DNA of 64,000 nt from a virus (IMGVR_UViG_3300045988_167732:32001-96000); one strand, 5' to 3'; shown: positions 7,463 to 55,277, numbered from the stretch's first letter. Notes: generated from the sequence alone by a model not told the origin. Made by a program: numbers and translations.

Positions 7463-8389
7463 ATGCCCTATAAAAAAAGAAAAGATAATTTGTGGTGTGT
7501 TTATAAGCATACAAGCCCTTCTGGTGGAGTATATATAGGAATAACAAGTGATTATCCTTTAGCAAGGTGGAGAAATGGTCGAGGATATGATTGTTGTGAA
7601 ATTATGAATAAAGCTATAAAAAAATACGGTTGGGAAAATTTTACTCATGAAATATTATTTGATAATTTAACAAAAGAAGAAGCTTGTTAGAAAGAAATAG
7701 AATTAATAGCCTTTTACAAAAATTAGGGACATTGTTATAATTTAGCTGAACGGGGAACTAATGGATTAGCTTCAGAAGAAACTAAAAAGAAAATGTCTTC
7801 AAATAGACAACGGAAAAACGCTCATGGTTGGCGGCATGTTGTTTCTTTAGAAACTAAACAAACGGTAGCTAAAAAAATAAAAGGAATTAAAAGAAATTCA
7901 AAGACAAAAGAAAAATTAAGTAGCACGCATAGCAAAAAAGTTTACTAGTATAATTTAGATGGAGAATTAATTCAGGAATGGGACAGCGTATATCAAGCAT
8001 CTAATATATTAGGATTAGCTCGAAGTCCAATTACACGTTGTAGATTATATTAGCAAAAAACTTATTAGAACTGTTTATGGCTGCTTGATTATATTGATGC
8101 CGTATTAATATAGAAATATTTAAACGATGAAATCATTATTCCTCCGATTAAAAATAAGTCTTTATTACAAAAGAAAGTAAGTTGTTTTTAGGATGAGAAA
8201 AAAATTAAAACTTTTGATTCTATAAAAGAAGCTTCAAAATGGTCAAAAATTACTGAACAGCAAATTCGGTATGCTTGTAAAAATAATAAAATTGCAGGAG
8301 AATATTATTGGAAATATGAAGAAGATTATTTTGGTGACAATTATTTTCTTTATTGGGCCAATAATTAGGACAAAATAAAATAGGAGTAA
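7463..8389 (+). CDS. GIY-YIG homing endonuclease with NUMOD/IENR-like C-terminal repeats; needs read-through of 9 in-frame TAG codons
   Basis: N-terminal GVYIGIT..Y..R motif. Beyond the first TAG the same frame gives typical VYxYNLDGELIQEWDSVYQAS and IKTFDSIKEASKW..GEYYWKY repeats. The first TAA is at 8387. Confidence 0.8.
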
Positions 8390-8390
8390 T

Positions 8391-9650
8391 ATGGAATATT
8401 GTAAATATCTTATTTTAGTAGACCCTAATAATAATGGGGTTGATTCAAACAAATTCTACAAAATGGCTGGAAATGGTGATAATACGTTTACTGTAGAATA
8501 TGGTCGTGTTGGTGCTGCTCCTCAAACTAAAACTTATCCTATGTCTAAATGGAATTCTACTCTTTCTTCTAAGTTGAAGAAGGGATATGTTGACCGTTCT
8601 GATTTAATGCAGGAAGTTATTGCTGATTCTAAAGTTGAAGACAAGTCTAATGGTGTAGATGAATTTGGTTTGGTTCAAAACCTATCTGTCCGAGAGATTA
8701 TCAAGCGTCTTTGGGATTATGCTAATAAGACTATTCAATCTGCTTATTCTGTTCGTGCTGAAGCTGTTACTCAGGCTATGATTGATGCCGCTCAGGAAAA
8801 GATTGACTATATTGCAGCGAATTACAAAAACTGGTCTGTTGAGGAATTTAATAAGAATTTAAATGAGTTGTTCATTATTGTTCCTCGTAAGATGAAGCGT
8901 GTTTCTGATTGTCTTGTTTCTGATTCTTCCGAATATGATAAAAAGCTTTCCGAGGAACAGAGCTTGCTTGATACTATGGCTGGTCAAGTTTATAAACCCA
9001 AGGCAAAAATTGCTGACACTGATTCTGAGATTAAGGCTTCTGAAAGCATTTTGCAGAAGATGGGTATTACCATGGAAGAAGCTACTCAGGAAGATGTTGC
9101 TAAAATTAAAAAGGCAATGGGCGATTCTGCTGGGAAGTTTTACAAGGCTTGGCGTGTCACTAATCTTGAGACAGAAAAGAATTATCAGAAGTTTACAACT
9201 GAAAATAATATCGGTAATGTAAAACTTCTTTGCCATGGTAGTCGCAATCAGAATTGGTTTAACATTCTTAAGATGGGCTTGAAAATTCGTCCTGCTGGTG
9301 CAATTGCAACAGGAAGTATGTTTGGCCTTGGAATCTATTGGTCCAACCCTGAAAAGTACAAAGGAGGAGTAGCTAAGTCTATTGGGTACACTTCTTTGGG
9401 TGGATATTGGACTCGTGATTATCAGAATTGTGGCTTCCTTGCCTTCTTTGATGTAGCTATCGGAGATAGTGTTGATGCCTATTCTTTTGATTCCAAGTAT
9501 TATTCTTATAATCTTGAGAGACTAAAAAAGGACAATCCTAAAGCTTGGAGTTTGTGGGCTCATGGCAATACTTCTATGCTTCGCAACGATGAAATTATCG
9601 TTTACGATGACAGACAGATGACTATTCGATATTTAGTGGAGATTAGATAA
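8391..9650 (+). CDS. PARP-like ADP-ribosyltransferase with N-terminal WGR domain
   Basis: WGR-like FYKM..TVEYGRVG. C-terminal H-Y-E pattern: LLCHGS, GLGIYWS, NDEIIVY. Confidence 0.8.
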   Translation: MEYCKYLILVDPNNNGVDSNKFYKMAGNGDNTFTVEYGRVGAAPQTKTYPMSKWNSTLSSKLKKGYVDRSDLMQEVIADSKVEDKSNGVDEFGLVQNLSVREIIKRLWDYANKTIQSAYSVRAEAVTQAMIDAAQEKIDYIAANYKNWSVEEFNKNLNELFIIVPRKMKRVSDCLVSDSSEYDKKLSEEQSLLDTMAGQVYKPKAKIADTDSEIKASESILQKMGITMEEATQEDVAKIKKAMGDSAGKFYKAWRVTNLETEKNYQKFTTENNIGNVKLLCHGSRNQNWFNILKMGLKIRPAGAIATGSMFGLGIYWSNPEKYKGGVAKSIGYTSLGGYWTRDYQNCGFLAFFDVAIGDSVDAYSFDSKYYSYNLERLKKDNPKAWSLWAHGNTSMLRNDEIIVYDDRQMTIRYLVEIR

Positions 9651-9651
9651 A

Positions 9652-10143
9652 ATGATTGGTGAAATGCAGACTGCTTCTAGTGTAACTTTTGGTATTCCTT
9701 CTGATTTTCCTTCTCTTGTAGACTCTGTTGTGGGTTCTCTTAAAAAGGGATATAGAGATTATTGTTTTACAAATAAGCAACTAAAAGAAATTATTGAGAA
9801 ATGCCATGAGGCAAATGTAAGTTTTGCTTATCGTAAGCAGTTAGATGAAGATTGCAAGATTGAATATATTGAACTTATTCCTTGTACTTTTTATTTTGCA
9901 GAAACAGTTGAGGAAAATAAGGTAGAAAACATTCAAGTAGCAATGGAAAATCTTCCTGTGGCATTGATTTTCTGTCCTAAAAATAATAAGACTGATATTA
10001 CTATTGATGCTGATTATCAGGAAAAGAACGAAAAAAGAGTGAAGAGTTATAAGAAGCTTGCATATTTCGATGATGATGGTTATCCAGTATATATTGAAGA
10101 CCTTACGAGAATGAAAGAAGAAAAAGAAAATGGAACTTTCTAA
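9652..10143 (+). CDS. hypothetical protein
   Basis: 163-aa ORF starting 1 nt after the upstream stop. Confidence 0.7.
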   Translation: MIGEMQTASSVTFGIPSDFPSLVDSVVGSLKKGYRDYCFTNKQLKEIIEKCHEANVSFAYRKQLDEDCKIEYIELIPCTFYFAETVEENKVENIQVAMENLPVALIFCPKNNKTDITIDADYQEKNEKRVKSYKKLAYFDDDGYPVYIEDLTRMKEEKENGTF

Positions 10144-11020
10144 TGAATAGAAAGAAGTTTTATATGGATGCCTTTTGGGGGATGGAAATTTAAATATTCA
10201 CAAAAGCGCTAAAAATGCTACTTTTTCTTATACTTGTATTGATAAAGAAACGGTAGAAAAAGTTGCTTCTTATTTTACCAAAGATTTTTTCGGTAAGGTA
10301 TCTTTTTGTTAGTATTTTGACAAAAGAACCAATAAGGTTTATAGTCGTTATACTTATAGAACTTTATCATCTCCTGTTTTAACTGAAGAATATTATAATT
10401 GGTATCCCGATAAAAAGAAAATCATACCAAAAATAAATTTTACTCCCTTGATATGTTATTGGTGGTATATAGGTGACGGATGTTTAGATAAAAGACGTAT
10501 TTTTTTAGCGACAGATTGTTTTCCTAAAAGTAATCTGGAAGAAATCGTTTTGCCTAAATTAAACGATTTTTCACCAAGATTAATTAAAAATGGGAAAGAA
10601 ACTCATTTTAGGACTTGTTTTTCAGTTGAACGGTCTCAAAAATTTTTAGAGTATATTGGTGAATGTACTTTACCACATTTTTCTTATAAATGGGATTTTG
10701 TTCCTTTTGTAAATAATAAATATAATTTTTCAGAAAAAGAATAGAAAAATATTCTTTATTTAGCCAATCAAAATTTATCTCCTTTTTAGATTTCTAAAAT
10801 CATTTAGAAATATAATGTAGATACAATACGTTATTTTTTAAAGCAAAAAGGATTATATTCTCCTAAAGGCAACAAAGGCGCTCATTTGAAAACATTAATT
10901 AAAGAAAAAATTAATTCTCGGTTATCAGTGGAATTGATTTTAAAAGATTTAAATATTACTTTAGAACAATATTAGTATTTTTAGGATTTTGAAAAATTGA
11001 GGAATAAATATGGAATATAA
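10130..11020 (+). CDS. LAGLIDADG homing endonuclease with C-terminal HTH-like tail; needs read-through of 7 in-frame TAG codons
   Basis: Two LAGLIDADG-type motifs (LLGDGNL, WYIGDGCL) lie in one frame interrupted only by TAG. The frame continues past 10744 into LSPFxISKII..DTIRYFLK and ends at TAA 11018. Confidence 0.8.
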
Positions 11021-11834
11021 GACATTAGGTGACAGGATGAAGGGGGCTTATGAAAACAAATATCGTAATTATCTTCCTGAGAATCTTCCTGTTATCATAA
11101 GAGAAGACGGTGCTCATTTTCACAATTTCTGCCGTGGCATGAAGAAACCTTTCGACCCTATTTTTGTTAAAACCATGCAACAGACTATGCTTAAGCTCTG
11201 TGAACTTATTCCTAATGTTAAGTTTGGTTATGTTGAGTCTGATGAAATTTCTCTTGTCATGATTCAAAGTGAAAGAAATTCTCAGCCTTGGTTTGATAAT
11301 AATATTCAAAAGATTGTTAGTACATCTGCGGCTCTTTGCACTCTTTGGTTTAACAATTATTTTGCTGAGAATACTATTATTGATACAACCTTGGATATCT
11401 TTAATATAGACAAAGATTCTTACGATTGGAAAATGGTTCGTAAAGGACAAGAAATGCCTACTTTTGATAGTAGAGTATTTGTGGTCCCTGCCTTTGAAGT
11501 GCATAATTATTTTGTTTGGAGACAGCAGGATTGTACTCGAAATTCTATTCAGGCAGTTGCTCAATCTTTGTATTCTCAAAAAGAACTTCATGGTATTAAT
11601 ACTACCAAATTACAGGATAAGATGTTTACTGAAAAGGGTGTAAACTGGAACGATTATACGACAGTAGAGAAACGTGGTACTTGTGCTTATCGTATTCCTA
11701 CTACTGTTATTGGTAAAGATGGTCAAGAGACTATTCGTTATAAATGGATTCTTGATTATGAAATGCCAATTTTAACAAGTGAAGAAGGTAAAGACTTTAT
11801 TAGTCAGAAGGTATTTACCAATGAGTCTGTTTAA
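11010..11834 (+). CDS. Thg1-like protein (tRNA-His guanylyltransferase / 3'-5' polymerase family)
   Basis: GDRMKxYE, IREDGAHFHNF and FGYVESDEISLV match the Thg1 N-terminal catalytic motifs. Confidence 0.8.
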   Translation: MEYKTLGDRMKGAYENKYRNYLPENLPVIIREDGAHFHNFCRGMKKPFDPIFVKTMQQTMLKLCELIPNVKFGYVESDEISLVMIQSERNSQPWFDNNIQKIVSTSAALCTLWFNNYFAENTIIDTTLDIFNIDKDSYDWKMVRKGQEMPTFDSRVFVVPAFEVHNYFVWRQQDCTRNSIQAVAQSLYSQKELHGINTTKLQDKMFTEKGVNWNDYTTVEKRGTCAYRIPTTVIGKDGQETIRYKWILDYEMPILTSEEGKDFISQKVFTNESV

Positions 11835-12261
11835 AAATATTGCAAGAGCAAAACAATTAATTGATTTTAGTGGTTTGAATGTAAGAGGCACTAAAATTTA
11901 TCCTACAGATACAGATTACTATATGGAATTATGGGATTAGGGCTGTGCTTTAGGAGAGTTTAAATATAATAATAAGCCCATTGAAAAAGGTCAATATCTT
12001 TGTTTATCAAGACATGTCAAAACTTATACAATGGCAGGAAAATTTGCAATGGGGTTTATAGCCGACCACTATGTAAAAGACCCAGAAGATATGGTTCCTG
12101 CGGCAGAATGTTATGTTAGAGAATATTGTTATACAGGTATGTCTTTAAATGATAAAGGAGAGTATGAATTAATTTCTCCTAAGAAACCAACCACTGTAAA
12201 AGAATTACAGGATTGGTTTGTCAGAGAATGTCGATATAGGCGTAGAGTAAGTTTAGATTAA
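11821..12261 (+). CDS. hypothetical protein (1 in-frame TAG)
   Basis: ATG 11821 is in frame with track ORF 12031..12261; only a TAG near 11938 separates them. Confidence 0.7.
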
Positions 12262-12291
12262 ATTATATAAATAAGAAAGGAGATAAGTCCA

Positions 12292-12819
12292 ATGCAGTTT
12301 CAAGTTATGAGTCGTAGAGATTGTGTTAAGTATAGTTATGGTTCTCATGAAGAATCTTCTATTGTAATTAGCATTAACGATTCTGCCGATATTGGAGTGC
12401 GTCAACTTCCTAATAAATTTAATAACATTAAAGCGCAATTATCTCTCTTTTTTGATGACATTCAGCCATATAGAGGTATGAAATACTGGAAGAAAGATGA
12501 AGGCGTAATTATAGAAAATTATACAAACGCAGAGGGGTTTGTATATGAGTCTCGCATGTATCAGCTTATGACTGAAAAAGATGCTAAGAAAATTATTGAT
12601 TTTGTCAATAAATGGTATAATAAAGTAGACAAAATTATTGTACATTGCAATGCTGGAATTAGTCGTTCTTCTGGTGTTTGCGCTGGTATTATGAAATGTT
12701 TTACAGGTGATGATAGTCAGATTTATGATAATCCATATTATCATCCCAATACCTTGTGTTATAATTTAATTTTAAATGAATATTATAAGGAAGGAGGAAA
12801 AAGTAATGGAGACGCTTAA
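12292..12819 (+). CDS. Cys-based phosphatase (PTP/dual-specificity, CX5R)
   Basis: Active-site signature VHCNAGISRSSG. Confidence 0.75.
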   Translation: MQFQVMSRRDCVKYSYGSHEESSIVISINDSADIGVRQLPNKFNNIKAQLSLFFDDIQPYRGMKYWKKDEGVIIENYTNAEGFVYESRMYQLMTEKDAKKIIDFVNKWYNKVDKIIVHCNAGISRSSGVCAGIMKCFTGDDSQIYDNPYYHPNTLCYNLILNEYYKEGGKSNGDA

Positions 12820-13102
12820 TGCAGGTCGAGGAGTATGCGGTATTTGTTCAGGATGTGAAAACGAATTGATTTGCAAATACACAGATGATGTGTTCGAAGC
12901 AGAGAAGGCTTTTAATGAACTCAAGAAAAGTATTAAAGATTATCCTGAGTGCCTTTCTGTAAAACTTTCTTGCAAATATAAGAAGTATGTTACTACCAAG
13001 GCTGACATCTGGGGGTCAGATTGGGCTGGTTCTACTTATACTCGTACAAGTGCAAATTCTAATTTAGATATTACTCCTACATTGAAAAAGTCAGAATTTT
13101 AG
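12806..13102 (+). CDS. hypothetical Cys-rich protein
   Basis: ATG 12806 follows GGAGG; in frame with track ORF 12776. Confidence 0.65.
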   Translation: METLNAGRGVCGICSGCENELICKYTDDVFEAEKAFNELKKSIKDYPECLSVKLSCKYKKYVTTKADIWGSDWAGSTYTRTSANSNLDITPTLKKSEF

Positions 13103-13112
13103 TATTAAACTA

Positions 13113-13390: not shown

Positions 13391-13430
13391 TATCATGTCG
13401 AAAGGGAAAAAGACAAACAATAAAAAATAT

Positions 13431-14397: not shown

Positions 14398-14832
14398 ATG
14401 TCTAAGAAGAGTTTTAGATATCGTAATTAGGTTACTTGTCCTCGTTGTCATCAAAGGTATTCAATTAACTCTAATTATGAATGTCCATATTGTCACACAA
14501 AATTCTATGATTTGAGTTTTGTTGATACAAAAACAGAAAATAGCTTACCTGTTTATGTTAGATATAAATGTAATGGGTATACTGGCTTTGCAGAAAATTC
14601 TAAAGAAGAGTATGATGTATTTATTACAGTAGCAACATTAGGGATTAATGTCGAAAACAGTTTAAGTCATAATTATGAAAATTTTTATGGTTTTCGAGAG
14701 GAACTTTGTGGAAAATATTTAAAAACTGTTTCTTTTAATGTAAAAGCTGAAATGGAAGCATTAGCTACTTTGGGAGAAAATGATGAACCTGTTCTCTTTG
14801 TAGCTGAAGCTGTTCCTAAGAAGAAAAAATAA
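14398..14832 (+). CDS. zinc-ribbon protein (1 in-frame TAG)
   Basis: ATG 14398 follows GAGG. CPRC..CPYC lies upstream of track ORF 14512 in the same frame, separated only by TAG. Confidence 0.7.
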
Positions 14833-16559: not shown

Positions 16560-16704
16560 GCAGGATTAGTGTTAGCGGTTAGCACGACGGTCTTCCCCTT
16601 TAATAGTTTAATGTAAAACCAATATGAAAATATTGATGTAAGTTCAAATCTTATTTAAAGGTCCAAAACCGTAAGGGCGAGTTCGAATCTCGTATCTTGC
16701 TCCA
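16560..16704 (+). tRNA. tRNA-Gly(TCC) interrupted in the anticodon loop by a 69-nt tRNA-like element
   Basis: Acceptor GCAGGAT/ATCTTGC, D-stem GTGT/GCAC, anticodon stem ACGGT/ACCGT, T-arm GCGAG-TTCGAAT-CTCGT, discriminator T plus CCA. Removing 16597-16665 leaves the loop CTTCCAA. Confidence 0.75.
16597..16665 (+). ncRNA. nested tRNA-like element (acceptor, D-arm, GAAA hairpin, T-arm, TCCA end)
   Basis: CCTTTAA/TTAAAGG acceptor, GTTT/AAAC D-stem, CAATAT-GAAA-ATATTG hairpin, GTAAG-TTCAAAT-CTTAT T-arm, then T-CCA. Confidence 0.7.
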
Positions 16705-20232: not shown

Positions 20233-20375
20233 GCCCGTGTAGCTCAGTAGGAAGAGCACTTGCCTTGATGGAGTAGTATAAGAAATACATCCTATAAAGG
20301 AAGGTGTGAGTTCAAATCTCATTTTCATCACCGTTAAGCAAGGAGTCGAGAGTTCGAGCCTCTCCACGAGCACCA
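20233..20375 (+). tRNA. tRNA-Lys(TTT) (alternative reading Asn-GTT) interrupted by a 67-nt tRNA-like element
   Basis: Canonical D and T arms, anticodon stem CTTGC/GCAAG, discriminator A plus CCA, one C-A mismatch in the acceptor. Removing 20267-20333 leaves CTTTTAA. Confidence 0.65.
20267..20333 (+). ncRNA. nested tRNA-like element (ACCG end)
   Basis: GATGGAG/TTTCATC acceptor, GTAT-AAGAA-ATAC D-arm, GTGAG-TTCAAAT-CTCAT T-arm. Confidence 0.65.
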
Positions 20376-20503: not shown

Positions 20504-20588
20504 GGGTGAGTAGTGAATCGGCAAACACGGGAGTCTGTAAAACTCTTTCTTAACGGAGTAGAAGGGTCGGCACCTTCCTCACCCACCA
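20504..20588 (+). tRNA. tRNA-Tyr(GTA), class II, CCA encoded
   Basis: Anticodon loop CTGTAAA, long variable arm, unusual T-loop GTCGGCA. Confidence 0.8.
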
Positions 20589-23000: not shown

Positions 23001-23306
23001 ATGACTGATTTTAAGACTTACATTTATTAGACAGCAAGTAATAAAAAGTTTGTTTATAGATGTCCTCATTGTAATAAAGGGATAATGCAAGTAGTAGAAA
23101 CAAAAATTGCTAAAAATGAAACTAATATTTTATCTTGGAATTATACTTGCCCAGTTTGTAAGAAAACGATTGTCTCTATTGAAAAAGATGGTTGTTCTTG
23201 CTTTAAGAGTGTGTTCCCTCCAATGACTCAAATTAGTGATAAAGAATTTGCTGATATTAAAAAGAATGTAGGAGAGAAAGATATTTATCTGTTCTCTGAA
23301 ACATAA
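23001..23306 (+). CDS. zinc-ribbon protein (1 in-frame TAG)
   Basis: ATG 23001 follows AAAGGAAG. In frame with track ORF 23085 across a single TAG. CPHC..CPVC. Confidence 0.7.
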
Positions 23307-24161: not shown

Positions 24162-25037
24162 ATGAAATATTGTCTCAATTGTGGTAAAGAATTAAATAAA
24201 CAAGTAAAAAAATTTTGTGATAATAAATGTTTTGTTGAATATTAGTATCACAAATATATTAAAAACTGGAAGCTTGGTAAAATTACAGGGGTCGTTGGTT
24301 TTGGGGTTAGTAAATATATAAGAAGATATTTATTAGAAAAGTATAATTATTCTTGCCAAGAATGTGGTTGGAATAAAATTAATCCTTATACTAATAAAAC
24401 ACCTTTGGAAATTCACCATAAAGATGGAAATTATTTAAATTGTTCAGAAGAGAATTTAGCTTTGCTTTGCCCCAACTGTCATTCTTTAACAGATACTTAT
24501 AAATCTTTGAATAGACCAGAAATGAGAAGAGATAGAACAAGATACAATCAAAGACCCAATCCTTTTTTTGATGAATTAAATTGTGATAAGAAAGAAAAGA
24601 AAAAATATTTTTGTCCGGTTTGTGGCAATGAAATAACCCGCAAGGCAAAATTATGTCTTAATTGCAGAAAAAAGGAAAATTTGAAAAACTCTAATAAACC
24701 CTCTAAAGAAATTTTAATGGAAGAATCTAAAAATTTTGTCTCTTATGTAAAATTAGGGGAAAAATATGGGGTATCTGACAATACTATTAGGAAGTGGTTC
24801 TCAAGTTACGATTTGCCTCTTCCTAAAAGGGAAAAAGCAGAATATAAACCAAAAGTCTACCATCCAGAATATTAGGTTTATACAACAAGAAAAACAGCTA
24901 CAGGATGGGAAAAATACTTAAAATTGGGTCAGCATAAAATTGCTCGATATGTTCCCAACCATACTGTTTCTCAAATAGAAGATTACATAAAAATTTTTTA
25001 TGATGAAGCTGTGAAAAAAGGAATTATTAATAAATAA
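24162..25037 (+). CDS. HNH homing endonuclease (2 in-frame TAG)
   Basis: N-terminal CLNCG..C..C ribbon, HHKDGN..N..NL..LCPNCH HNH core. The frame continues through TAG at 24873 to TAA 25035. Confidence 0.8.
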
Positions 25038-25341: not shown

Positions 25342-25416
25342 AGGGGTATAGCCAAATGGTGAAGGCAGCGGTCTTTGACGCCGCCATTAAAGGTTCGAAT
25401 CCTTTTATCCCTGCCA
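25342..25416 (+). tRNA. tRNA-Gln(TTG), CCA encoded
   Basis: Anticodon loop CTTTGAC, T-loop TTCGAAT. Confidence 0.8.
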
Positions 25417-25876: not shown

Positions 25877-26010
25877 GCTGATATAGCTCAATAGGTTAGA
25901 GCTTCCGACCACGAAATAGCTTAAGAAAAGCAAAGGATGTAAGTTCAAATCTTACTTTCGTGACCATTATAATCGGAGGGTTGAGTGTTCGAGCCACTCT
26001 ATCAGCACCA
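25877..26010 (+). tRNA. tRNA-Ile(TAT) interrupted by a 57-nt tRNA-like element
   Basis: Canonical arms, anticodon stem TCCGA/TCGGA, A-CCA end. Removing 25910-25966 leaves CTTATAA. Confidence 0.75.
25910..25966 (+). ncRNA. nested tRNA-like element (ACCA end, no anticodon arm)
   Basis: CACGAAA/TTTCGTG acceptor, GCTT-AAGAA-AAGC D-arm, 7-nt linker, GTAAG-TTCAAAT-CTTAC T-arm, A-CCA. Confidence 0.75.
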
Positions 26011-26107: not shown

Positions 26108-26905
26108 ATGATTGAGTTAACTGAAGAACAGAAAAAATTAGAATTGTCAAATGATAATTGGAAAATTGTTCCAAATTGGTCAAGATATGAAGTAAATTAG
26201 TATCGGATTCTACGAAACAAAAAAACCAAACATATTTTAACATCAAAAGATAATAAGAGAGGATATTTAATTTATCTTGTTCTTAGAGATGATGATAACA
26301 GAATTCACATTTTGTCAAAACATAAAGCTGTAGCTTTGGCATGGGTTCCCAACCCCTAGAATTTACCTATTATAAATCACAAAGACGAAGACAAATTAAA
26401 TTGCTTTTATTAGAATTTAGAATGGTGTACAAGCAGTTATAATAACAGTTACAACGGGACAGGTAAAAAGAGAAGTGAAAAATTTAAAAAGACTTTTTTT
26501 GTTTATGATTCTGAGCGGAATTTAATAGAAAAAAGAAAAGGCATAAATGAATTTTGCGCAGAAAATAATTTATCTTCTCGGTGTGCTAGTTCTATTTTAA
26601 AAAAGAATAGTGAAGAAGAAAAATGTTATAGTATAAAAGGATTTTATCTTTTTTACGAACAAATAACAAAAGAAGATTTTTTATAGAGAAAGCAAAAAGT
26701 TTTTAATATAGGGAATTTAGGCAAAAAGAAATTTTCTAAAAAAGTTTATCAATATGATTTACAAAACAATCTTCTTCAAATTTATTCTAGTGTACATGAA
26801 GTTAAAGAGAAAAATGATTTAGCTACAACGTCAGTAATAAGTGCTTGTTGTAGAAATAAAATAAAAACTGCTTATGGATATAAATGGAGTTATGTTCCAT
26901 TATAA
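26108..26905 (+). CDS. HNH/NUMOD-type homing endonuclease (4 in-frame TAG)
   Basis: W..VPNWSRYEV, GY..YL, VHR-like KHKAVALAWVPNP, NHKDEDKLN..NLEW, C-terminal AYGYKWSY. All lie in one frame broken only by TAG. Confidence 0.8.
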
Positions 26906-26997: not shown

Positions 26998-27078
26998 GCG
27001 CCTGTAGTCTAATTGGATAAAACAGCACTCTTCTAAAGTGTATTTTTTATACGAGTTCGAATCTCGTCAGGCGTACCA
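26998..27078 (+). tRNA. tRNA-Arg(TCT), CCA encoded
   Basis: Anticodon loop CTTCTAA, T-loop TTCGAAT. Confidence 0.8.
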
Positions 27079-27153
27079 TGAGGAGTAGCATAGCGGCAAA
27101 TGCACTAGTCTCTAAAACTAGGTAAACAGGGTCGGCACCTGTCTCCTCTGCCA
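27079..27153 (+). tRNA. suppressor tRNA, anticodon CTA (reads UAG)
   Basis: Anticodon arm CTAGT-CTCTAAA-ACTAG, T-arm ACAGG-GTCGGCA-CCTGT, G-CCA end. D-loop, anticodon arm and T-loop closely resemble the phage tRNA-Tyr, but the long variable arm is missing. Positions 1:72 form a T-T mismatch. Confidence 0.75.
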
Positions 27154-29892: not shown

Positions 29893-30168
29893 CAAGCTAA
29901 AGGTAACACTTTAGCGAACTAGAAAAGGCTTAAGACAAGATGTAGCAAGCATTATTTAATTGATTTGGTTGTAAAGCGTTTCACCAACGCAGATTGCTAC
30001 GACGAACTAAACTTGCTTAAAGGTAGTGGGAGCAATCCTCTAAAAGATTTCCGATGGTGGCTTGGAACTTCTCTATTTGACGTAAGAAGGTAAATGGATA
30101 AGGCAACATTCGTGTTAGCGTTTATCGTGTAGGAAATTTTAGAGCAGATAAAAAGAAAGGGAAATACA
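29893..30168 (+). ncRNA. long structured 5' leader or ncRNA downstream of a consensus promoter
   Basis: Promoter TTGACA-N17-TATTAT at about 29858-29886. The following 275 nt have no ORF and contain several nested helices (GCTAAAG/CTTTAGC, GTAGCAA/TTGCTAC, GGTTG/CCAAC). Confidence 0.5.
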
Positions 30169-30531
30169 ATGTCTACTAAAATTTACGAAATTATTCCTTA
30201 TGAAGTAGAAGCTTTAAAGTGGGAAAAAGACAATTGGAACGAAGTGGTAGAATTTTTTAAAGTCCATAATACTGAAATTAAGAATATTGTTAAATATTCT
30301 GAAAAGGAACTTGAAAGTTTTAAGAAGCTTAATAAGACTTGGTTTGAAAAGAAATTTGATAATGAGGGTAGAAATTCTTTTATTGCTTATAGACCAGAAA
30401 ATGATTCTTATGATGAATATGAAGAATTTGTTTTACTTGGAGATTATTTTGTAATTGGAAAAGATGGTTTAGTTTATGTAAAACACGGGCTCAATTTTGA
30501 GAGTATGTTTAGGGAGAAAGAAAATGTTTGA
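30169..30531 (+). CDS. hypothetical protein
   Basis: AAAGGGAAA SD-like motif. Confidence 0.7.
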   Translation: MSTKIYEIIPYEVEALKWEKDNWNEVVEFFKVHNTEIKNIVKYSEKELESFKKLNKTWFEKKFDNEGRNSFIAYRPENDSYDEYEEFVLLGDYFVIGKDGLVYVKHGLNFESMFREKENV

Positions 30532-42867: not shown

Positions 42868-43045
42868 GATTGGTGAAAAAGAATTTGTTAATGGAGATAT
42901 CTATTACAATCCTTTTTTTGGGGATTTGTGGATAATTCAAAATAACACCGAGATACGCAAAATCAATGACACTTATACTACTGATGTTAACGATGTTGTT
43001 GGTTTTATATATGTCGGACATGTTGATTTGGAGGTAATACAATGA
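42860..43045 (+). CDS. hypothetical small protein
   Basis: 61-aa ORF overlapping its neighbours. Confidence 0.55.
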   Translation: MIKIGEKEFVNGDIYYNPFFGDLWIIQNNTEIRKINDTYTTDVNDVVGFIYVGHVDLEVIQ

Positions 43046-43407
43046 GTTATGATATTAGTTATAGAGTTCAATGTAAAGATGACCCTAAACTTTGGGCTGA
43101 TGTTGGAAACTGTGAAGCAAATATTACTTACAATTTGCGTGAAATGATTTAGAAATCTACAGGCTTAGAATGGAAAAATGAAGAAGATAATGGTCTTGTA
43201 AAAGATGTTATTCCTTTTATCATTCATGGTTTAGAAGAGCTTGAAAGATTTCCAAATAAATATAAACAATATGAATCTCCTAATGGATGGGGAACAATTA
43301 GTGGATGCAAGAGTTTTTTTACTCGATGTATTTTAGATTGGACTAATTTTACAGAAGATAGTTGGACTTCTCCTTATAAAGACATTGTTCATTTTTGGAT
43401 TGTATGA
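43042..43407 (+). CDS. hypothetical protein (1 in-frame TAG)
   Basis: ATG 43042 follows GGAGGT. Open to TGA 43405 with one TAG. Confidence 0.7.
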
Positions 43408-46730: not shown

Positions 46731-46801
46731 AACTCTTGACAACAGACTCTTTTTGGTTTATACTATTGATAGTAAATTAGACTGAAAGGAGTCTTTTCTA
46801 T

Positions 46802-49682: not shown

Positions 49683-49689
49683 TAACCAC

Positions 49690-49718: not shown

Positions 49719-49757
49719 ATAAATACAAATCGAAAAAGTAAGGAGAGTTGTTAAATT

Positions 49758-50294: not shown

Positions 50295-50320
50295 TTAAAT
50301 AATATGTGTAGGAGAGAAAA

Positions 50321-50536
50321 ATGTATATTCCAAAAGATGACAGATAGGTATCTTTACTTTCTTTTACTGGCTGTGATGAAAAGAAATGTCCATGGAAGGA
50401 TTGTGTAAGGCATCCCGAAAGTGGATTTACCTATAATTCTATAGGGCATTTATCTTATCTTTGTAAAAAATTTAAAGAAGTCCCGAAAGAAGTTGAAGAA
50501 ACGAAGGAGAAAGAAACAAAGACAAATGATTCTTAA
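50321..50536 (+). CDS. hypothetical small protein (1 in-frame TAG)
   Basis: ATG 50321 follows AGGAGAG. Open to TAA 50534 with one TAG. Confidence 0.6.
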
Positions 50537-50882: not shown

Positions 50883-50887
50883 TTGAT

Positions 50888-51376: not shown

Positions 51377-51451
51377 TAAATACTTGACAACTCTTTTTAG
51401 GTCTGGTATACTTTGAATATAAAGTAAATCATTCCTGAAAGGGGTTGTTTA

Positions 51452-51790
51452 ATGTATAATCGTAATTTTCATAATAAAATTGGTTCGGACAAAATCAAGC
51501 TCACTTTCCATTCTCGTGACCGTGGTTTGGAAAGATTGGGTATTAAGAATGAAAGAGAGCTTCGTCAATTAGCTTGCAATGCTCGTAACAAAGGTATCAA
51601 TCTTGATGCTGTAACTATTTACAACTACGAAAAGATTGGACTAACCAATGAAGAAATGTACGCTTTTAAGCGTCGTTTCCGTACCAAGTCCAACAGCGAG
51701 CGTATTTATTACCACAAAGGTTTTGTTTTTGTATTTGCTGGTAAAAATGCTTGTACACTTAAAACTGTAATCGAACTAAAAAATATTTGA
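51452..51790 (+). CDS. hypothetical protein
   Basis: Promoter TTGACA at about 51386, SD AAAGGGG. Confidence 0.7.
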   Translation: MYNRNFHNKIGSDKIKLTFHSRDRGLERLGIKNERELRQLACNARNKGINLDAVTIYNYEKIGLTNEEMYAFKRRFRTKSNSERIYYHKGFVFVFAGKNACTLKTVIELKNI

Positions 51791-51799
51791 GGTGAAATT

Positions 51800-52204
51800 A
51801 TGAATTATAAAACTGGAAATAATGTAGTAGAAAATAAAATTGTTACTTATTATCCTGTTCTTGTGGTTAAGTTTAATGAATACAAATGTGCTTATTATAT
51901 TAAACGTGACCTTTTGTATTCTGTTCCTAATTATTTTTTCACTCAAGACATAGAAGAAGATAACATTCTTTGCGCAAATTCTGAGGGAGAGGCTTTAGCA
52001 TTGGTTGGAGAATTTAAATCTGACCCAAACAGCGAAAGTTTAATTAACACTTTCGTTAAAGCAGTTAAATCTTATAATAATCCCATCCATCTCCCAGAGG
52101 CTCCTCAATATATTGAACATTACTTTTCTGTTATTTGCAAAAAGCACGTTTTTACTACTTCTCTAATGGACAATAAATATCACACTTCCCCTGAAAACTT
52201 TTAA
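51800..52204 (+). CDS. hypothetical protein
   Basis: GAGGTG SD. Confidence 0.7.
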   Translation: MNYKTGNNVVENKIVTYYPVLVVKFNEYKCAYYIKRDLLYSVPNYFFTQDIEEDNILCANSEGEALALVGEFKSDPNSESLINTFVKAVKSYNNPIHLPEAPQYIEHYFSVICKKHVFTTSLMDNKYHTSPENF

Positions 52205-52215
52205 GGAGGTTTTAT

Positions 52216-52725
52216 ATGGATAACTATGAAGCTATGAAGCCTTGGGAGCACGGAAAGATTGTTGAAATTCATCATGATATTAAGTCTATTTCTGTGTATC
52301 CTGTCGTTTATGAAAACAAAGATTTTTATGTCTGTCGAGTATCAGGTTCTACAGAAATAATTACAATTAGAAAAAATTCTTGTCAAAATTACGTCTTTGA
52401 ATCTTACGAAAAGTATATGAGTTGGAGACGAAACAACCCTCTTGCTAGTCTTAATAGCAGACATTTCTTTGTATATATCCCCAAGGATGGGAAAATTTCT
52501 TTCGCTGACAATTTTCCTGTTAGAGATTCTCTTGATGAAGCATTGGCTAAAGCTGAACACGCTTATGATGAAGAGGAGAAATCTTTTAAGCGTTTGCAAA
52601 CCAGCTTTGAATATTATGCCAATAGAATTGAAGACACAAAAGAAACTTTAAGACAGAAAATGTCACGTATTGAAAATATTAAGGCTCAAATTGCGGAAAG
52701 GGACAAGAATAAAAATGGTATTTAA
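52216..52725 (+). CDS. hypothetical protein
   Basis: AAGGAGG SD. Confidence 0.75.
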   Translation: MDNYEAMKPWEHGKIVEIHHDIKSISVYPVVYENKDFYVCRVSGSTEIITIRKNSCQNYVFESYEKYMSWRRNNPLASLNSRHFFVYIPKDGKISFADNFPVRDSLDEALAKAEHAYDEEEKSFKRLQTSFEYYANRIEDTKETLRQKMSRIENIKAQIAERDKNKNGI

Positions 52726-53047
52726 TCTTACAGATAACGGTCTTACTCATTCTAATATGGAGACTTATTATTGTATTGGTATTCCCCGAAAGAAACTTCC
52801 TCTTAACTATGGTGAATCACCTTCTTATGGTTTTGCTAATAGAGGTTGGTCTAATATACCGTATCTCATTGCAGAGAATTTCACTCTTTCCTGTTTTTCT
52901 TTTGACAATGAAAAGTGTGCTAAAGAATGGTGGAGTAAGAATAAGAAGTTTTTCCTTGAAAACAAAACTTATACCAAGGAATATGACTTTAATTATGCAA
53001 AGATTATCAAGGTAGAAATTGGTAGTAAGTATACTATTATGCGTTAA
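52715..53047 (+). CDS. hypothetical protein
   Basis: ATG 52715, in frame with track ORF 52670. Confidence 0.65.
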   Translation: MVFNLTDNGLTHSNMETYYCIGIPRKKLPLNYGESPSYGFANRGWSNIPYLIAENFTLSCFSFDNEKCAKEWWSKNKKFFLENKTYTKEYDFNYAKIIKVEIGSKYTIMR

Positions 53048-53058
53048 AGGAGAATACT

Positions 53059-53451
53059 ATGGTTAACCTTAAAAATCAGCCTGTGTATTATATTACCATT
53101 AAAGCAAACCGAGACTCTGAAATTAAGACTCTTTATGCTGGTGAACACTTTGGTGAAGGTGGTTTTTTCATCAATTTCGATTCAGCAAAGCGTTTTAGTT
53201 GTCCTCTTTCTGCTGAAAAGTGGTTTAAGTTTAATTTCGATGAAACTAATCTTCCTCCTGAATATTATGACTGGACAAGCATTACCATTGAAGAGCTTAA
53301 GCTTGTTCCTGTTATGAATATCTATCTTTCTAAGGAAGAGACGATTTCAAATTCTAAAACTCTTGAAACCACCACAAGGCAAGAAAAGCCTAAGCGTACT
53401 TACAAAAAGAAAAAGGTAGAAGACAAAATCGACACCATTCCAGATACTTAA
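53059..53451 (+). CDS. hypothetical protein
   Basis: AAAGGAGA SD. Confidence 0.7.
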   Translation: MVNLKNQPVYYITIKANRDSEIKTLYAGEHFGEGGFFINFDSAKRFSCPLSAEKWFKFNFDETNLPPEYYDWTSITIEELKLVPVMNIYLSKEETISNSKTLETTTRQEKPKRTYKKKKVEDKIDTIPDT

Positions 53452-53582
53452 TTCATAAAAATTTAACAGTTTATCTATTGACAGATATTCTTTTTTATGC
53501 TAAACTAGTTATAGAAAAGGATATCTGTCCTTTATTTTAATTTAAATAAATCTGTTGAAATACACAGAAGAATGGAGATAAT

Positions 53583-54614
53583 ATGGCAACTGTTTAGTAT
53601 CATTATGGTAAAAATAATTCTTTGCTTCGTTGGTATCATCCTATTGTAAGAGGCGTGACTTATAATAATGTGGTGGTAATTGATTGGCCTAAGAGTGAAC
53701 TAAAGAGCGCAAGTATAGATATGTGTACGCAACCAAAGCTTAGTCCTGAAAAAATGTATAACCTTTATGGTTATAAACCTGATGTTGTAACAAACGCTTT
53801 CTTCTTTGATACTGCAAGCGGAACTTCTATCTGGAATTTGAAAAGTAATAATACTGTTTATGCCAAAGATGGTAATTTCTCTAATGGCTGGGGTATTACA
53901 AATTCTGGAAAGATTATGAATGGCGTATTTAACAATGGTGTTGGTTGGAGAGACTTTGGCACAGAATATCCTGCTTTATTTAAAAATAAACAGCCTCAAT
54001 CTGTAAAAAACTATGCTGACATTGATTATGAAGCCAAAAGACAGATGTTCGGTTGGACAAAGACAGATGGTAATCCTAAAAACGAAAAGTATTTTATTGT
54101 TTCTGTTGTATCTGGTGGTATGAAACTTTCCACTGCTCAGAATCTTATTAAATCTCTTTTTCCTGATGTAGATTATTGTTGCAATCAAGATGGCGGAAAT
54201 TCTACTTATACAAACTTTGAAGGAAAGCGTCTTTCTGCGTCTGGTTGGTTAAGACCTGTTGATTCTATTCTTGCTTTCTGGCTTCGTTCTAATGCTGAAA
54301 GAGAAAAAGCAGAAACAGAAGAAAAGAAACAAGACAAGGCTAACAAAAAAGAAGAAAACCGTCCTAAGAAAACTGGCTACCGTTGTCAGTTAGGAGCTTT
54401 TAGCAATTCTACTCGTGCAATTACTTACAGAAATGAAATTAGAACTCTTACTGGTGTAATTGATTATTCAACGGCTTTCTGTGTTCAAGACCCCAAAACA
54501 AAGCTCTATAAGGTCCAAGTAGGTTTTTTTGCTAAAAAGTCTGGTGCTGAAAAGGTTAAGGCAGATTTGGCTGAAAAGGGATATAATTGTTATATTTGCT
54601 ATGTGGAGGAATAA
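53583..54614 (+). CDS. cell-wall hydrolase-like protein: phosphodiester glycosidase-like domain plus C-terminal SPOR domain (1 in-frame TAG)
   Basis: NQDGGNST motif. C-terminal YRCQLGAFSN..YKVQVGFFAKK..A is SPOR-like. ATG 53583 follows GGAGA; a TAG is the fifth codon. Confidence 0.65.
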
Positions 54615-54979
54615 TGAAAATTTTTGATACTTGTCTTAAAATTGAAGAAATTTTAAAAGGTTATCTTATAGCTTCTAATAAAACAAGCGACAAAAAGAAA
54701 TCTGAATATTATAAGCATGAAGCTTACAGATTAAATTTTGCTACGAGAGAACTTGATTTATTTTATAACTGGGGCTTTTCTAATCTTGTTTATGTACCCA
54801 ATCTAAATCATTGGGCTTGTGTAATGCCTAAAGACTATGAATATCTTAATTCTACTTCTTATCCCTATTCCAAAGAAGACCCTCCTATTATCTTTGTAAG
54901 TGGTAATGTTGATAGTGTATTAGATGAATATTTAAGCGAATTAGATGAATATTTAAATGAGGAAAAAGGTAATGAATGA
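54614..54979 (+). CDS. hypothetical protein
   Basis: ATG 54614 follows GGAGGA. Confidence 0.65.
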   Translation: MKIFDTCLKIEEILKGYLIASNKTSDKKKSEYYKHEAYRLNFATRELDLFYNWGFSNLVYVPNLNHWACVMPKDYEYLNSTSYPYSKEDPPIIFVSGNVDSVLDEYLSELDEYLNEEKGNE

Positions 54980-55277
54980 GAAGAAGTATGAAGTGATTTC
55001 TGATATTACCTCTCCTATTGATTAGGAAATTGCAGATTTTGTTCAGCGTATTATTGACCAAGACGAAACTCTGGCTTCTTTGACTGATACTTTTTTTATC
55101 AGTTATGATTATGAGTATGAAAATGTTTATATTTGCACTACCTATCCACAGTATTTAATTGTAATTAATCACCAACTTTTTAAAGATTTGTGTGATATAA
55201 TTAATGAGTATTATGGATTTTCTGTCTTTGTTAGAAAAGTTGATTCAATTATTAGCATTAAATCCAAGGAAAGCTAA
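54972..55277 (+). CDS. hypothetical protein (1 in-frame TAG)
   Basis: ATG 54972 is in frame with track ORF 55080 across one TAG. Confidence 0.65.

What the first reader, a model, noticed from the sequence alone, without database searches (positions are those of the whole stretch)
7463..55277. TAG is a sense codon in this genome (stop-codon recoding)
Twelve genes are intact only if in-frame TAG is translated. TAG counts per gene: 7463 (9), 10130 (7), 11821 (1), 14398 (1), 23001 (1), 24162 (2), 26108 (4), 38833 (5), 43042 (1), 50321 (1), 53583 (1), 54972 (1). Conserved domain motifs continue in the same frame on both sides of the TAGs: GIY-YIG with NUMOD repeats, two LAGLIDADG motifs, the HNH core, and zinc ribbons. 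No frameshifts are needed. Every confidently called gene ends in TAA or TGA. A CTA-anticodon tRNA is encoded at 27079. TAG-to-Gln recoding (code 15) is established for some gut phages. The amino acid inserted here cannot be read from the sequence alone.
Basis: partly seen in the sequence, partly recalled or inferred. Interest (0 to 1): 0.65.

Follow-up and report, generated by a model that had tools for sequence, protein, structure and literature searches.

The report
Gut jumbo phage reads TAG as glutamine
This piece of a 221-kb uncultured human-gut phage uses the stop codon TAG as a glutamine codon in a small set of genes, mostly selfish homing endonucleases, and carries its own suppressor tRNA; this kind of recoding is already documented for gut phages, so it is a new example and not a new principle.

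Summary
All twelve genes have exactly the stated number of in-frame TAGs (34 in total), no in-frame TAA or TGA, and no frameshifts. Coding signal and Pfam/PHROG domains run through the TAGs. None of 103 gene models has to end in TAG. A cloverleaf tRNA with anticodon CTA lies at 27079-27153.

In 16 related assemblies, TAG swaps mainly with CAA or CAG (12 of 25 variable sites). A NUMOD1 column has Q in 90 of 105 homologues. NrdD, just upstream on the same contig, has TAG where relatives have CAG and Thermotoga has Q. All suppressor alleles keep U1:U72, G73 and a CUA anticodon.

Recoding is sparse (about 0.2% of codons; coding density rises from 75% to 80%). Four mobile homing-endonuclease genes hold 22 of the 34 TAGs. 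One transposon gene (TnpB) still has TAG at its true stop position.

The suppressor tRNA locus is hypervariable among relatives. In some of them a group I intron splits the anticodon.

This is a new member of the known code-15 gut phages. No release factor or synthetase gene was seen in about 94 kb, and the host is unknown.

The parts
27079..27153 (+). Amber-suppressor tRNA with anticodon CTA, 75 nt with encoded CCA. It directly abuts tRNA-Arg(tct) at 26998-27078.
   Evidence: ARAGORN and Rfam tRNA model at 45.5 bits. Eight different alleles from relatives fold into one cloverleaf, and 12 of 20 pairs show compensatory changes. All alleles keep the U1:U72 mismatch, G73 and the loop CUCUAA.
7463..8389 (+). 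GIY-YIG/NUMOD1 homing endonuclease, 308 aa, 9 in-frame TAGs.
   Evidence: Codon 162 aligns with Q in 90 of 105 homologues. All nine TAGs are conserved in L006, and codon 116 is CAA here versus TAG in L006. Codon 302 is TAG here versus CAG in 3 relatives.
10130..11020 (+). LAGLIDADG_2 homing endonuclease, 296 aa, 7 in-frame TAGs. It is a free-standing insertion between the 163-aa ORF and the Thg1-like gene.
   Evidence: Pfam hit over residues 8-172 spans the TAG at codon 61. The gene is absent from relative L006, where the neighbouring genes abut.
11821..12261 (+). 146-aa protein of unknown function, TAG at codon 40.
   Evidence: The TAG is conserved in L006.
14398..14832 (+). 144-aa zinc-ribbon protein, TAG at codon 11.
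   Evidence: The ATG has GAGG at -10. The next possible start is a TTG at codon 39 with no Shine-Dalgarno motif.
23001..23306 (+). 101-aa double zinc-ribbon protein, TAG at codon 10.
   Evidence: The TAG is conserved in 15 of 15 relatives. The first CxxC (codons 21-24) lies upstream of the only alternative ATG, at codon 29.
24162..25037 (+). HNH homing endonuclease, 291 aa, 2 in-frame TAGs.
   Evidence: Pfam HNH. Present in full in only 1 of 15 relatives. Codon 238 is TAG here versus CAG in 2 relatives.
26108..26905 (+). HNH_3 + NUMOD1 homing endonuclease, 265 aa, 4 in-frame TAGs.
   Evidence: The Pfam HNH_3 hit over residues 88-113 spans the TAG at codon 102. Present in 1 of 15 relatives, with all four TAGs kept.
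38833..39303 (+). 156-aa protein of unknown function, 5 in-frame TAGs.
   Evidence: TAGs at codons 8, 17 and 44 are conserved in 15 of 15 relatives. Codon 114 is TAG here versus CAA in 11, CAG in 2 and GAG in 1. Codon 133 is CAG here versus TAG in 1 relative.
43042..43407 (+). 121-aa PHROG 4019 protein, TAG at codon 37.
   Evidence: The PHROG hit over residues 1-93 spans the TAG. The TAG sits inside the conserved block NLREMI-X-KSTGLEWKN in 120 full-length homologues. Relatives carry TAG in 7, CAA in 3, CAG in 2 and CGA in 3.
50321..50536 (+). 71-aa protein, TAG at codon 9.
   Evidence: The ATG has AGGAG at -11 and there is no downstream start. The TAG is kept in 9 relatives and is GAA in 1.
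53583..54614 (+). 343-aa SPOR-domain protein, TAG at codon 5. Whether the TAG lies inside the gene is uncertain.
   Evidence: Pfam SPOR. The ATG has GGAG at -9, but a public gene call starts at the TTG at codon 14.
54972..55277 (+). 101-aa protein, TAG at codon 18.
   Evidence: A Shine-Dalgarno-supported ATG lies upstream. The only downstream start is a TTG at codon 37 with no Shine-Dalgarno motif.
30094..30531 (+). It has a TAG at codon 13 and a CAG/TAG polymorphism at codon 18.
   Evidence: Relatives carry CAG in 10 and TAG in 5 at codon 18. The start is ambiguous: ATG at codon 1 or at codon 26.
62183..63514 (+). IS605-type TnpB gene whose TAG (63500-63502) lies at the natural stop position. 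If the TAG is read through, the protein gains 4 residues before a TAA.
   Evidence: Pfam OrfB_IS605 and Cas12f1-like_TNB. Two relatives have TAA at this codon.
12776..13108 (+). 110-aa ORF with a TAG one codon before a TAA. It cannot be decided whether the TAG acts as terminator or sense codon.
   Evidence: The TAG is conserved in L006.
25342..25416 (+). The phage's ordinary tRNA-Gln(UUG), included for comparison. It has G73 and a weak A1-U72 pair.

Best explanation
The window comes from a roughly 221-kb uncultured human-gut jumbo phage that has reassigned TAG from stop to glutamine (genetic code 15).

Shown:
- TAG has been removed from gene ends.
- TAG occurs inside about a dozen conserved reading frames in the window, and also in NrdD, an exonuclease and other genes just outside it.
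- TAG interchanges with CAA and CAG among relatives.
- The phage encodes a tRNA(CUA) in its tRNA cluster.

Inferred mechanism:
- The phage suppressor tRNA is transcribed with the tRNA cluster. A host enzyme charges it with Gln, and it outcompetes host release factor 1 at UAG. GlnRS-type recognition is suggested by the open 1:72 pair, G73 and U35.
- Most phage genes contain no TAG, so they can be read in either code from the moment of entry.
- Full-length product of the TAG-bearing genes appears only once the suppressor tRNA is abundant. This ties their amount and timing to the suppressor.
- This applies above all to the four homing endonucleases, in which TAG makes up about half of all Gln codons.
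For: Reading through TAG:
- TAG counts and the absence of in-frame TAA or TGA.
- Frame-0 coding score on both sides of the TAGs.
- Domains spanning TAGs.
- Binomial tests giving 1e-22 and 7e-6.
- Coding density 75.1% with code 11, 80.5% with TAG as sense, and 69.5% with TGA as sense.
- TAG is conserved or replaced by sense codons in L006 and 15 IMG/VR relatives.

Glutamine:
- The majority partner is Gln at 12 of 25 variable TAG sites, although Gln is only about 2.5% of codons. At several of these sites the partner is CAA, which is two mutations from TAG.
- The NUMOD1 column has Q in 90 of 105 homologues. One of them is P0002, whose DNA translates to its recorded sequence under the standard code and so carries no TAG.
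- NrdD on the same contig has TAG at codons 36, 107 and 462. Relatives have TAG/CAG/GAA and CAG/CAG/GAA at these codons. Thermotoga NrdD has Q at the codon-36 position.

The tRNA:
- Present right after tRNA-Arg(tct) in the window and in all 15 IMG/VR relatives examined there, as at least 6 different sequences, four of them (in L022, L023, L035, L036) interrupted by an insert.
- All alleles have CUA, the U1:U72 mismatch and G73.
- The cloverleaf has 12 covarying pairs.
- One allele of the phage's tRNA-Gln(UUG) shares the U1-G2-A3-G4 ... G73 acceptor end.

Bias towards homing endonucleases: TAG is 22 of 45 Gln-type codons in the four homing-endonuclease genes, against 19 of 404 elsewhere.

Literature: code 15 with CTA tRNAs is described in gut and jumbo phages. 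A preferentially recoded intron endonuclease is described in TGA-recoded Agate phages.
Against: - There is no protein-level evidence.
- About half of the variable sites have non-Gln partners (Glu, Lys, Tyr, Ser, His, Trp). Several of these come from poorly aligned endonuclease paralogues.
- Most TAG-aligned columns in distant homologues are variable.
- The window's suppressor allele resembles the phage tRNA-Tyr (68% identity, shared odd T loop) more than its tRNA-Gln (57%).
- Phage genes carry Shine-Dalgarno motifs. From general knowledge, this suggests a host outside Bacteroidota, possibly a Firmicute. Many Firmicutes lack GlnRS, so the charging route is uncertain.
- No RF2, RF1 inhibitor or synthetase gene was seen in about 94 kb.
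- The timing model could not be tested. No structural-gene module was reached in about 40 kb of walking outside the window.
Confidence: 0.85

Rival explanations
1. TAG is a sense codon but codes for an amino acid other than glutamine. Tyrosine is the main candidate, through a tRNA-Tyr-derived suppressor. Glu and Lys are others.
For: The window's suppressor allele is 68% identical to the phage tRNA-Tyr(GTA). It shares that tRNA's unusual T loop GUCGGCA and its D loop. A Tyr codon precedes 9 of 34 TAGs and follows 6 of 34. A few sites show TAG against TAT/TAC, GAG/GAA or AAG.
Against: The suppressor lacks the long variable arm and A73 that the phage's own bacterial-type tRNA-Tyr has, and it has G73 instead. 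The other suppressor alleles at the same locus have canonical T loops (TTCGA) rather than the tRNA-Tyr loop, yet keep U1:U72, G73 and CUA. The Tyr partners come only from divergent endonuclease paralogues or from one hypervariable site, while Gln partners occur at 12 sites in well-aligned orthologues. The column with Q in 90 of 105 homologues and NrdD Q36 also argue for Gln.
Confidence: 0.07
2. TAG is still a stop codon. On this view the TAG-bearing homing endonucleases and small ORFs are decaying pseudogenes or truncated products, and the CTA tRNA gives only occasional read-through.
For: Homing-endonuclease genes often decay. Most TAGs sit in mobile genes that many relatives lack. TnpB has TAG at its real stop position. 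Suppression competing with RF1 would make a 9-TAG protein rare unless it is very efficient (inference).
Against: All 27 in-frame stops of the five multi-TAG genes are TAG, with none TAA or TGA and no frameshifts (p about 1e-22). The TAGs are conserved between diverged relatives while neighbouring codons change. An essential-type enzyme, NrdD, carries three TAGs and still aligns over residues 4-634 with a solved NrdD. TAG is purged from terminators. The suppressor tRNA is retained in every relative examined despite rapid sequence turnover.
Confidence: 0.05
3. TAG encodes pyrrolysine, which is the label ARAGORN gives to any CTA tRNA.
For: The ARAGORN label 'tRNA-Pyl'. A radical-SAM gene lies at 36897-37856.
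Against: The tRNA is an ordinary cloverleaf with an 8-nt D loop, a 5-bp anticodon stem and a 5-nt variable loop. From general knowledge, this is not the compact pylT shape. The radical-SAM protein scores far below every NCBIfam cut-off and matches no PylB model. No PylS, PylC or PylD-like ORF appears among the large ORFs. TAG exchanges with Gln codons and not with Lys codons.
Confidence: 0.01

Closest known systems
Code-15 (TAG to Gln) gut phages: crAss-like, Lak and other jumbo phages (Borges et al., bioRxiv 10.1101/2021.08.26.457843; Peters et al., PMC9523058; jumbo-phage survey PMC13037316)
   Same: In-frame TAG aligns with Gln. The phage encodes tRNA(CUA). TAG is not used as a terminator. 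Many genes remain compatible with the standard code. The source is the human gut. tRNA introns are reported in recoded jumbo phages.
   Different: Recoding here is much sparser: about 0.2% of codons and +5.4 points of coding density. That is below the 10% gain used as a detection threshold in PMC13037316. No RF2 was seen in the part examined. Within the window, TAG is concentrated in homing endonucleases. Enrichment in structural or lysis genes could not be tested.
Preferentially recoded group I intron endonuclease of TGA-recoded Agate phages (Borges et al.)
   Same: A homing endonuclease uses the reassigned stop codon in preference to the standard codon. The authors proposed that this delays endonuclease production until the code switch.
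   Different: The codon here is TAG (Gln), not TGA (Trp). Here four endonucleases of three different families (GIY-YIG, LAGLIDADG, HNH) show the bias, and all four lie between genes rather than inside one. A fifth, a GIY-YIG ORF inside the NrdD insert, has only one TAG.
Escherichia coli supE-type amber suppressor tRNA-Gln and GlnRS identity rules (established knowledge: weak 1:72 pair, G73, U35)
   Same: CUA anticodon, G73, G10 and an unpaired first base pair (U1:U72) in all alleles.
   Different: This is a phage gene with many unrelated-looking alleles. The third acceptor pair is A3:U70, not G3:C70. The host and its charging enzyme are unknown.
phAss-1 group of TAG-recoded human-gut phages (PMC10607447, abstract seen)
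   Same: Human-gut virome genomes with in-frame TAG in many ORFs.
   Different: phAss-1 is 136 kb, with TAG in 41 ORFs. No sequence relationship was tested here.

Membership tests
Genetic code 15 phage (TAG reassigned to Gln) | Conserved genes contain in-frame TAG but no other in-frame stop, and homology continues across the TAG. | tested here: met
Genetic code 15 phage (TAG reassigned to Gln) | TAG positions align with glutamine in homologues or orthologues. | tested here: met
   Gln is the majority partner at 12 of 25 variable sites. Q in 90 of 105 homologues at the NUMOD1 column. NrdD codons 36 and 107 are CAG in relatives, and Thermotoga has Q at the codon-36 position. Other columns are variable.
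Genetic code 15 phage (TAG reassigned to Gln) | TAG is not used, or hardly used, as a terminator. | tested here: met
   103 gene models end in TAA (83) or TGA (20). Two genes have a TAG 1-3 codons before a TAA. The expected TAG share is 15%.
Genetic code 15 phage (TAG reassigned to Gln) | Coding density rises when TAG is treated as sense. | tested here: met
   75.1% rises to 80.5% on the + strand with my own ORF model, while treating TGA as sense lowers it to 69.5%. The gain is below the 10% cut-off used in some surveys.
Genetic code 15 phage (TAG reassigned to Gln) | A suppressor tRNA with anticodon CUA is encoded. This is common but not universal in the family. | tested here: met
Genetic code 15 phage (TAG reassigned to Gln) | Peptides show Gln at UAG. 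| not testable with these tools
   Needs proteomics of samples such as SAMEA2467028.
Pyrrolysine decoding system | A pylT-type tRNA together with pylS and pylBCD genes. | tested here: not met
   The tRNA is an ordinary cloverleaf. No Pyl genes appear among the window's large ORFs. The rest of the 221-kb contig was not seen.
Homing endonucleases (GIY-YIG, LAGLIDADG, HNH) | Catalytic or DNA-binding domains are present, and the gene is present in some closely related genomes and absent from others. | tested here: met
   Pfam NUMOD1, LAGLIDADG_2, HNH and HNH_3. Homologues of the 7463 gene carry GIY-YIG PF01541. The 10130, 24162 and 26108 genes are absent from most relatives. Cleavage activity was not tested.

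The most novel reading that the evidence does not exclude
Sparse TAG recoding in this lineage may serve mainly as a translational leash on selfish elements, and less as a general late-gene switch. On this reading, homing endonucleases of three unrelated families have each accumulated TAG as their main Gln codon, so they are made only when and as far as the phage's own suppressor tRNA allows. The suppressor tRNA gene is itself a hot spot: at least six alleles, some chimeric with tRNA-Tyr, and in some relatives the anticodon is split by a group I intron. That pattern would suggest a conflict among phage, mobile elements and host over control of UAG decoding.
Probability: 0.25. Interest if true: 0.65.

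Novelty: new member of a known kind. Interest (0 to 1): 0.4.

Why it matters
For annotation: this phage and its many relatives in public gut metagenomes are mis-annotated under code 11. In the public gene calls, NrdD and the endonucleases appear as fragments. The recoding is light enough to escape detectors based on coding-density gain.

For biology: the lineage offers a compact natural case for asking what a small number of reassigned stop codons is for. It has a dozen or so TAG-bearing genes and a strong bias towards homing endonucleases. More distant relatives have no TAG at all in the stretches seen. The suppressor tRNA gene turns over rapidly and sometimes carries an intron in its anticodon. 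Together these features make the 'code switch as regulator' idea directly testable by proteomics or reporter assays.

Tried and rejected
- A megablast of 7 kb of the window against INPHARED phages found nothing. A tblastn with the DUF2828 protein found only matches of 37% identity or less, to Bacillus and other phages, so there is no cultured relative.
- Host prediction through the TnpB gene failed. The best genomic match was 33% identity, to Flavonifractor, with hits scattered over many phyla.
- PHROGs gave no function for 9 of 10 proteins searched, 9 of which were TAG-bearing.
- Distant homologues of the 43042 protein are variable at the TAG column (V, R, T and others), which says nothing about the amino acid.
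- Rfam found no intron model in the roughly 330-nt insert of the L022/L035 suppressor allele.
- I walked about 10 kb upstream and about 30 kb downstream of the window in relatives to reach structural genes and test for late-gene enrichment. Only replication, nucleotide-metabolism and unknown genes turned up, so that test could not be made.
- The nucleotide after TAG shows no special context. It is A or G in 27 of 34 cases, which matches ordinary codon starts.
- The in-frame TAGs upstream of 46802 and 41495, and the one inside tRNA-Ser (23401), were rejected as non-coding.

Full report
**Source and setting**

The window has 32.9% G+C and nearly all genes lie on the + strand. It is bases 124508-188507 (reverse strand) of a 220,795-bp metagenomic contig, ENA ERZ28659889, ZELL14-1_SAMEA2467028 scaffold_22.

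Its genes point to a large phage: thymidylate synthase Thy1, a UvrD helicase with an intein, PARP/WGR, Macro, a Thg1-like protein, a radical-SAM protein, a DUF2828 protein, a C5 methylase, a TnpB, and a cluster of 16 tRNAs. No cultured phage is close.

Sixteen related assemblies were retrieved, some as several loci each:
- L006, at 91-97% nucleotide identity.
- Fifteen IMG/VR contigs of 108-216 kb.

Two more distant relatives, L146 and L160, were also retrieved.

**Check of the observation**

There is no other in-frame stop and no frameshift.

A codon log-odds score trained on 35 long TAG-free ORFs stays positive in frame 0 and negative in frames 1 and 2 in nearly every segment between TAGs; two very short segments score near zero.

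Domains run across TAGs:
- LAGLIDADG_2 over residues 8-172 of the 10130 gene.
- NUMOD1 over residues 158-193 of the 7463 gene.
- HNH_3 over residues 88-113 of the 26108 gene.
- PHROG 4019 over residues 1-93 of the 43042 gene.

Off-frame stop triplets are 15% TAG. The chance that all 27 in-frame stops of the five multi-TAG genes are TAG is about 1e-22. The chance that at most 2 of 103 genes end in TAG is 7e-6. With one ORF model, + strand coding density is 75.1% under code 11, 80.5% with TAG as sense, and 69.5% with TGA as sense.

Five single-TAG genes have the TAG within the first 18 codons. In four of them the upstream ATG carries a Shine-Dalgarno motif, and no credible downstream start exists. 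The fifth, 53583, stays ambiguous.

Three in-frame TAGs that my ORF list produced are upstream of the real start or inside a tRNA, and they do not count. They lie in the ORFs starting at 46736, 41468 and 23353.

**Is TAG really read?**

In L006 all nine TAGs of the GIY-YIG gene are conserved, while 587 other codons differ across the aligned region. In the 15 IMG/VR relatives, TAGs in the 38833, 23001, 43042 and 50321 genes are kept or exchanged for sense codons.

The 43042 TAG sits inside the conserved block NLREMI-X-KSTGLEWKN of a 121-aa family with 120 full-length homologues.

On the same contig, about 7 kb upstream of the window, the anaerobic ribonucleotide reductase NrdD has three in-frame TAGs. 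The uninterrupted copy in relative L129 aligns over residues 4-634 with the solved Thermotoga enzyme (E = 2e-153). Beyond the 3' end of the window, a 475-aa gene has seven TAGs.

Pseudogene decay or truncation at TAG cannot explain these facts.

**Which amino acid?**

There are four lines of evidence.

1. Codon exchange among orthologues. Across all relatives, 47 codon positions hold TAG in the window or in a relative, and 25 of these vary. The majority partner is Gln at 12 sites. The others are Tyr 3, Lys 2, Ser 2, Glu 2, Phe 1, His 1, Trp 1 and stop 1. Gln is only about 2.5% of codons. At several sites the partner is CAA, two mutations from TAG. Examples are position 39172 (CAA in 11 relatives, CAG in 2), 7808 and 43150. 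This indicates selection for Gln and not mere mutational proximity. Most Tyr, Phe, Lys and Ser partners come from poorly aligned endonuclease paralogues.

2. A conserved homologue column. Codon 162 of the GIY-YIG gene (motif KVY-X-YNL of NUMOD1) aligns with Q in 90 of 105 homologues. Codon 76 aligns with Q in 31 of 119, against a background of 3%. One of these homologues, P0002, is the syntenic endonuclease of a distant relative. Its DNA translates to the recorded protein under the standard code, so it carries no TAG and its Q is a real Gln codon. The window's own paralogue at 26108 reads KVYQYDL.

3. NrdD. Codons 36, 107 and 462 are TAG/TAG/TAG in this phage, TAG/CAG/GAA in a 95% relative, and CAG/CAG/GAA in an 85% relative. 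Thermotoga has Q at the position of codon 36.

4. A caution. The public protein P0001 shows Q at all nine positions, but its DNA has TAG there. The gene caller simply used code 15, so this is not evidence.

**The suppressor tRNA**

The tRNA at 27079-27153 abuts tRNA-Arg(tct). A CUA tRNA occupies the same slot in the window and in all 15 IMG/VR relatives examined there, but as at least six very different sequences. Together they fold into one cloverleaf, with compensatory changes in 12 of 20 pairs and an invariant CUCUAA in the anticodon loop.

All alleles keep a U1:U72 mismatch (U1:C72 in one) and G73. From established knowledge of E. coli tRNA-Gln identity (an open 1:72 pair, G73, U35), this fits charging by a GlnRS-type enzyme. 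One allele of the phage's ordinary tRNA-Gln(UUG) shares the acceptor end U1-G2-A3-G4 ... G73.

The window's allele is unusual because its D loop and T arm match the phage tRNA-Tyr, which has an odd GUCGGCA T loop in every relative. It lacks that tRNA's long variable arm and A73. I read it as a chimeric allele and not as a Tyr suppressor.

In L023 and L036 the suppressor is split after U35 by an insert of about 230 nt. The insert matches the Rfam group I intron model end to end (34.9 bits, E = 4e-7, below the gathering score). In L022 and L035 a different insert of about 330 nt lies after U33 and has no Rfam match.

**Distribution of TAG**

Recoding is sparse and uneven. Four homing-endonuclease genes make up 1,166 codons and hold 22 TAGs, against 23 CAA or CAG codons. 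The other 99 gene models (16,144 codons) hold 19 TAGs against 385 CAA or CAG codons, and several of those 19 are not real.

Three of the four endonuclease genes are missing from most relatives, so they are mobile.

About 40 kb outside the window was examined in relatives or on the same contig. TAG turned up there in:
- NrdD.
- A DnaQ-like exonuclease.
- The intron-borne GIY-YIG gene.
- An 89-aa zinc-finger protein.
- The 475-aa gene.
- A 712-aa gene with one TAG near its end.

It appears in nothing else.

The more distant relatives L146 and L160 have no TAG at all in confidently called genes, either as stop or as sense codon, in 22 kb and 13 kb. That is what an intermediate, TAG-free stage would look like.

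TnpB at 62183 is the one gene whose TAG sits where relatives have TAA. It is a leftover terminator in a mobile gene, backed up by a TAA three codons later.

**Mechanism**

The shown steps are that TAG is sense, that it most probably means Gln, and that the phage encodes the decoding tRNA.

The inferred steps are these. A host enzyme charges the tRNA. The tRNA competes with RF1. Proteins from TAG-bearing genes therefore depend on suppressor abundance, which limits or delays them.

For a gene with nine TAGs, either read-through must be very efficient or the protein is deliberately kept rare. This fits the idea, proposed by Borges et al. for a TGA-recoded intron endonuclease in Agate phages, that recoding holds homing endonucleases back.

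I could not test timing, and I found no RF2, synthetase or RF1-directed gene. Phage genes use Shine-Dalgarno sites. From general knowledge, this suggests a host outside Bacteroidota, so whether GlnRS is available remains open.

**Comparison with known systems and novelty**

TAG-to-Gln recoding with CTA tRNAs is established for gut phages, including jumbo phages, and has been confirmed by metaproteomics for two crAss-like phages. All defining features that could be tested are met here. Pyrrolysine is excluded as far as the window allows.

The finding is therefore a new member of a known kind. It has three features of moderate interest:
- Very light recoding that density-based screens would miss.
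- An extreme bias of TAG towards homing endonucleases of three families.
- A hypervariable suppressor locus that is sometimes interrupted by an intron.

Noticed in passing
window 16597-16662, 20267-20330, 25910-25963: Three tRNA-like RNAs are found by the Rfam tRNA model (41-43 bits) but not by ARAGORN. Acceptor, D and T arms are intact. The anticodon arm is closed by a 4-nt loop in the first two and missing altogether in the third (54 nt). All three are conserved in relatives, and a Thg1-like gene lies at 11010-11834. They could be decoys or substrates for tRNA-targeting or tRNA-repair enzymes.
   Followed up: partly
L023 9578-9870 and L036 8586-8880 (relatives; same slot as window 27079-27153): In these relatives the suppressor tRNA(CUA) is split inside the anticodon, after U35, by an insert of about 230 nt. 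The insert matches the Rfam group I intron model end to end at 34.9 bits, E = 4e-7, below the gathering score. Joining the exons restores the intron-less allele seen in L032.
   Followed up: partly
L022 8580-8990 and L035 8565-8975 (relatives): Another suppressor allele is interrupted after U33 by a different insert of about 330 nt with no Rfam match. About 1 kb of extra DNA follows before the conserved 151-aa gene.
   Followed up: partly
L143 453-3512 (same contig, about 7-9 kb upstream of window start): NrdD is split by an intron-like insert that carries a 316-aa GIY-YIG ORF. Relatives L129 and L146 have an uninterrupted 642-aa gene. The NrdD exons hold three in-frame TAGs.
   Followed up: partly
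window 3680-6388: The UvrD-type helicase of 902 aa contains an intein (faint Pfam Intein_splicing hit over residues 294-586). The orthologue in the distant relative L146 is 552 aa and lacks it.
   Followed up: no
window 20504-20588 and 27079-27153: The phage tRNA-Tyr has an unusual T loop, GUCGGCA in place of TTCGAAT, in all relatives. The window-type suppressor allele shares this T arm and the D loop, which suggests recombination between the two tRNA genes.
   Followed up: partly
window 62183-63514: An IS605-family TnpB gene (OrfB_IS605 + Cas12f1-like_TNB) lies in the phage. The closest genomic homologue is only 33% identical (Flavonifractor). Its TAG at 63500 corresponds to TAA in two relatives.
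   Followed up: partly
34 in-frame TAGs of the window: A Tyr codon (TAT 8 times, TAC once) directly precedes 9 of the 34 TAGs, and TAT follows 6 of them. Tyr is about 6-7% of codons. No explanation was found.
   Followed up: no
L026 6772-6844, L028 8039-8111, L034 7085-7157 (relatives): ARAGORN calls a tRNA with a four-base anticodon (ggta) directly after tRNA-Thr. In L027 the same slot is read as tRNA-Pro(ggg). Several relatives also have Rfam tRNA hits of 122-138 nt, which implies inserts of 50-60 nt.
   Followed up: no
L146 and L160 (distant relatives): In 22 kb and 13 kb of syntenic sequence, TAG occurs neither as a terminator nor in frame in confidently called genes. The orthologous GIY-YIG endonuclease in L160 has no TAG. 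This looks like a TAG-free state next to the recoded clade.
   Followed up: partly
window 6636-9650 and 11010-11834; L143 7235-7669: There is a cluster of genes for ADP-ribose and RNA-end chemistry: a Macro-domain protein, PARP+WGR, NADAR, a Thg1-like 3'-5' polymerase, and further on a DUF2828/DUF7788 (Ro-like) protein at 39375-41144.
   Followed up: no
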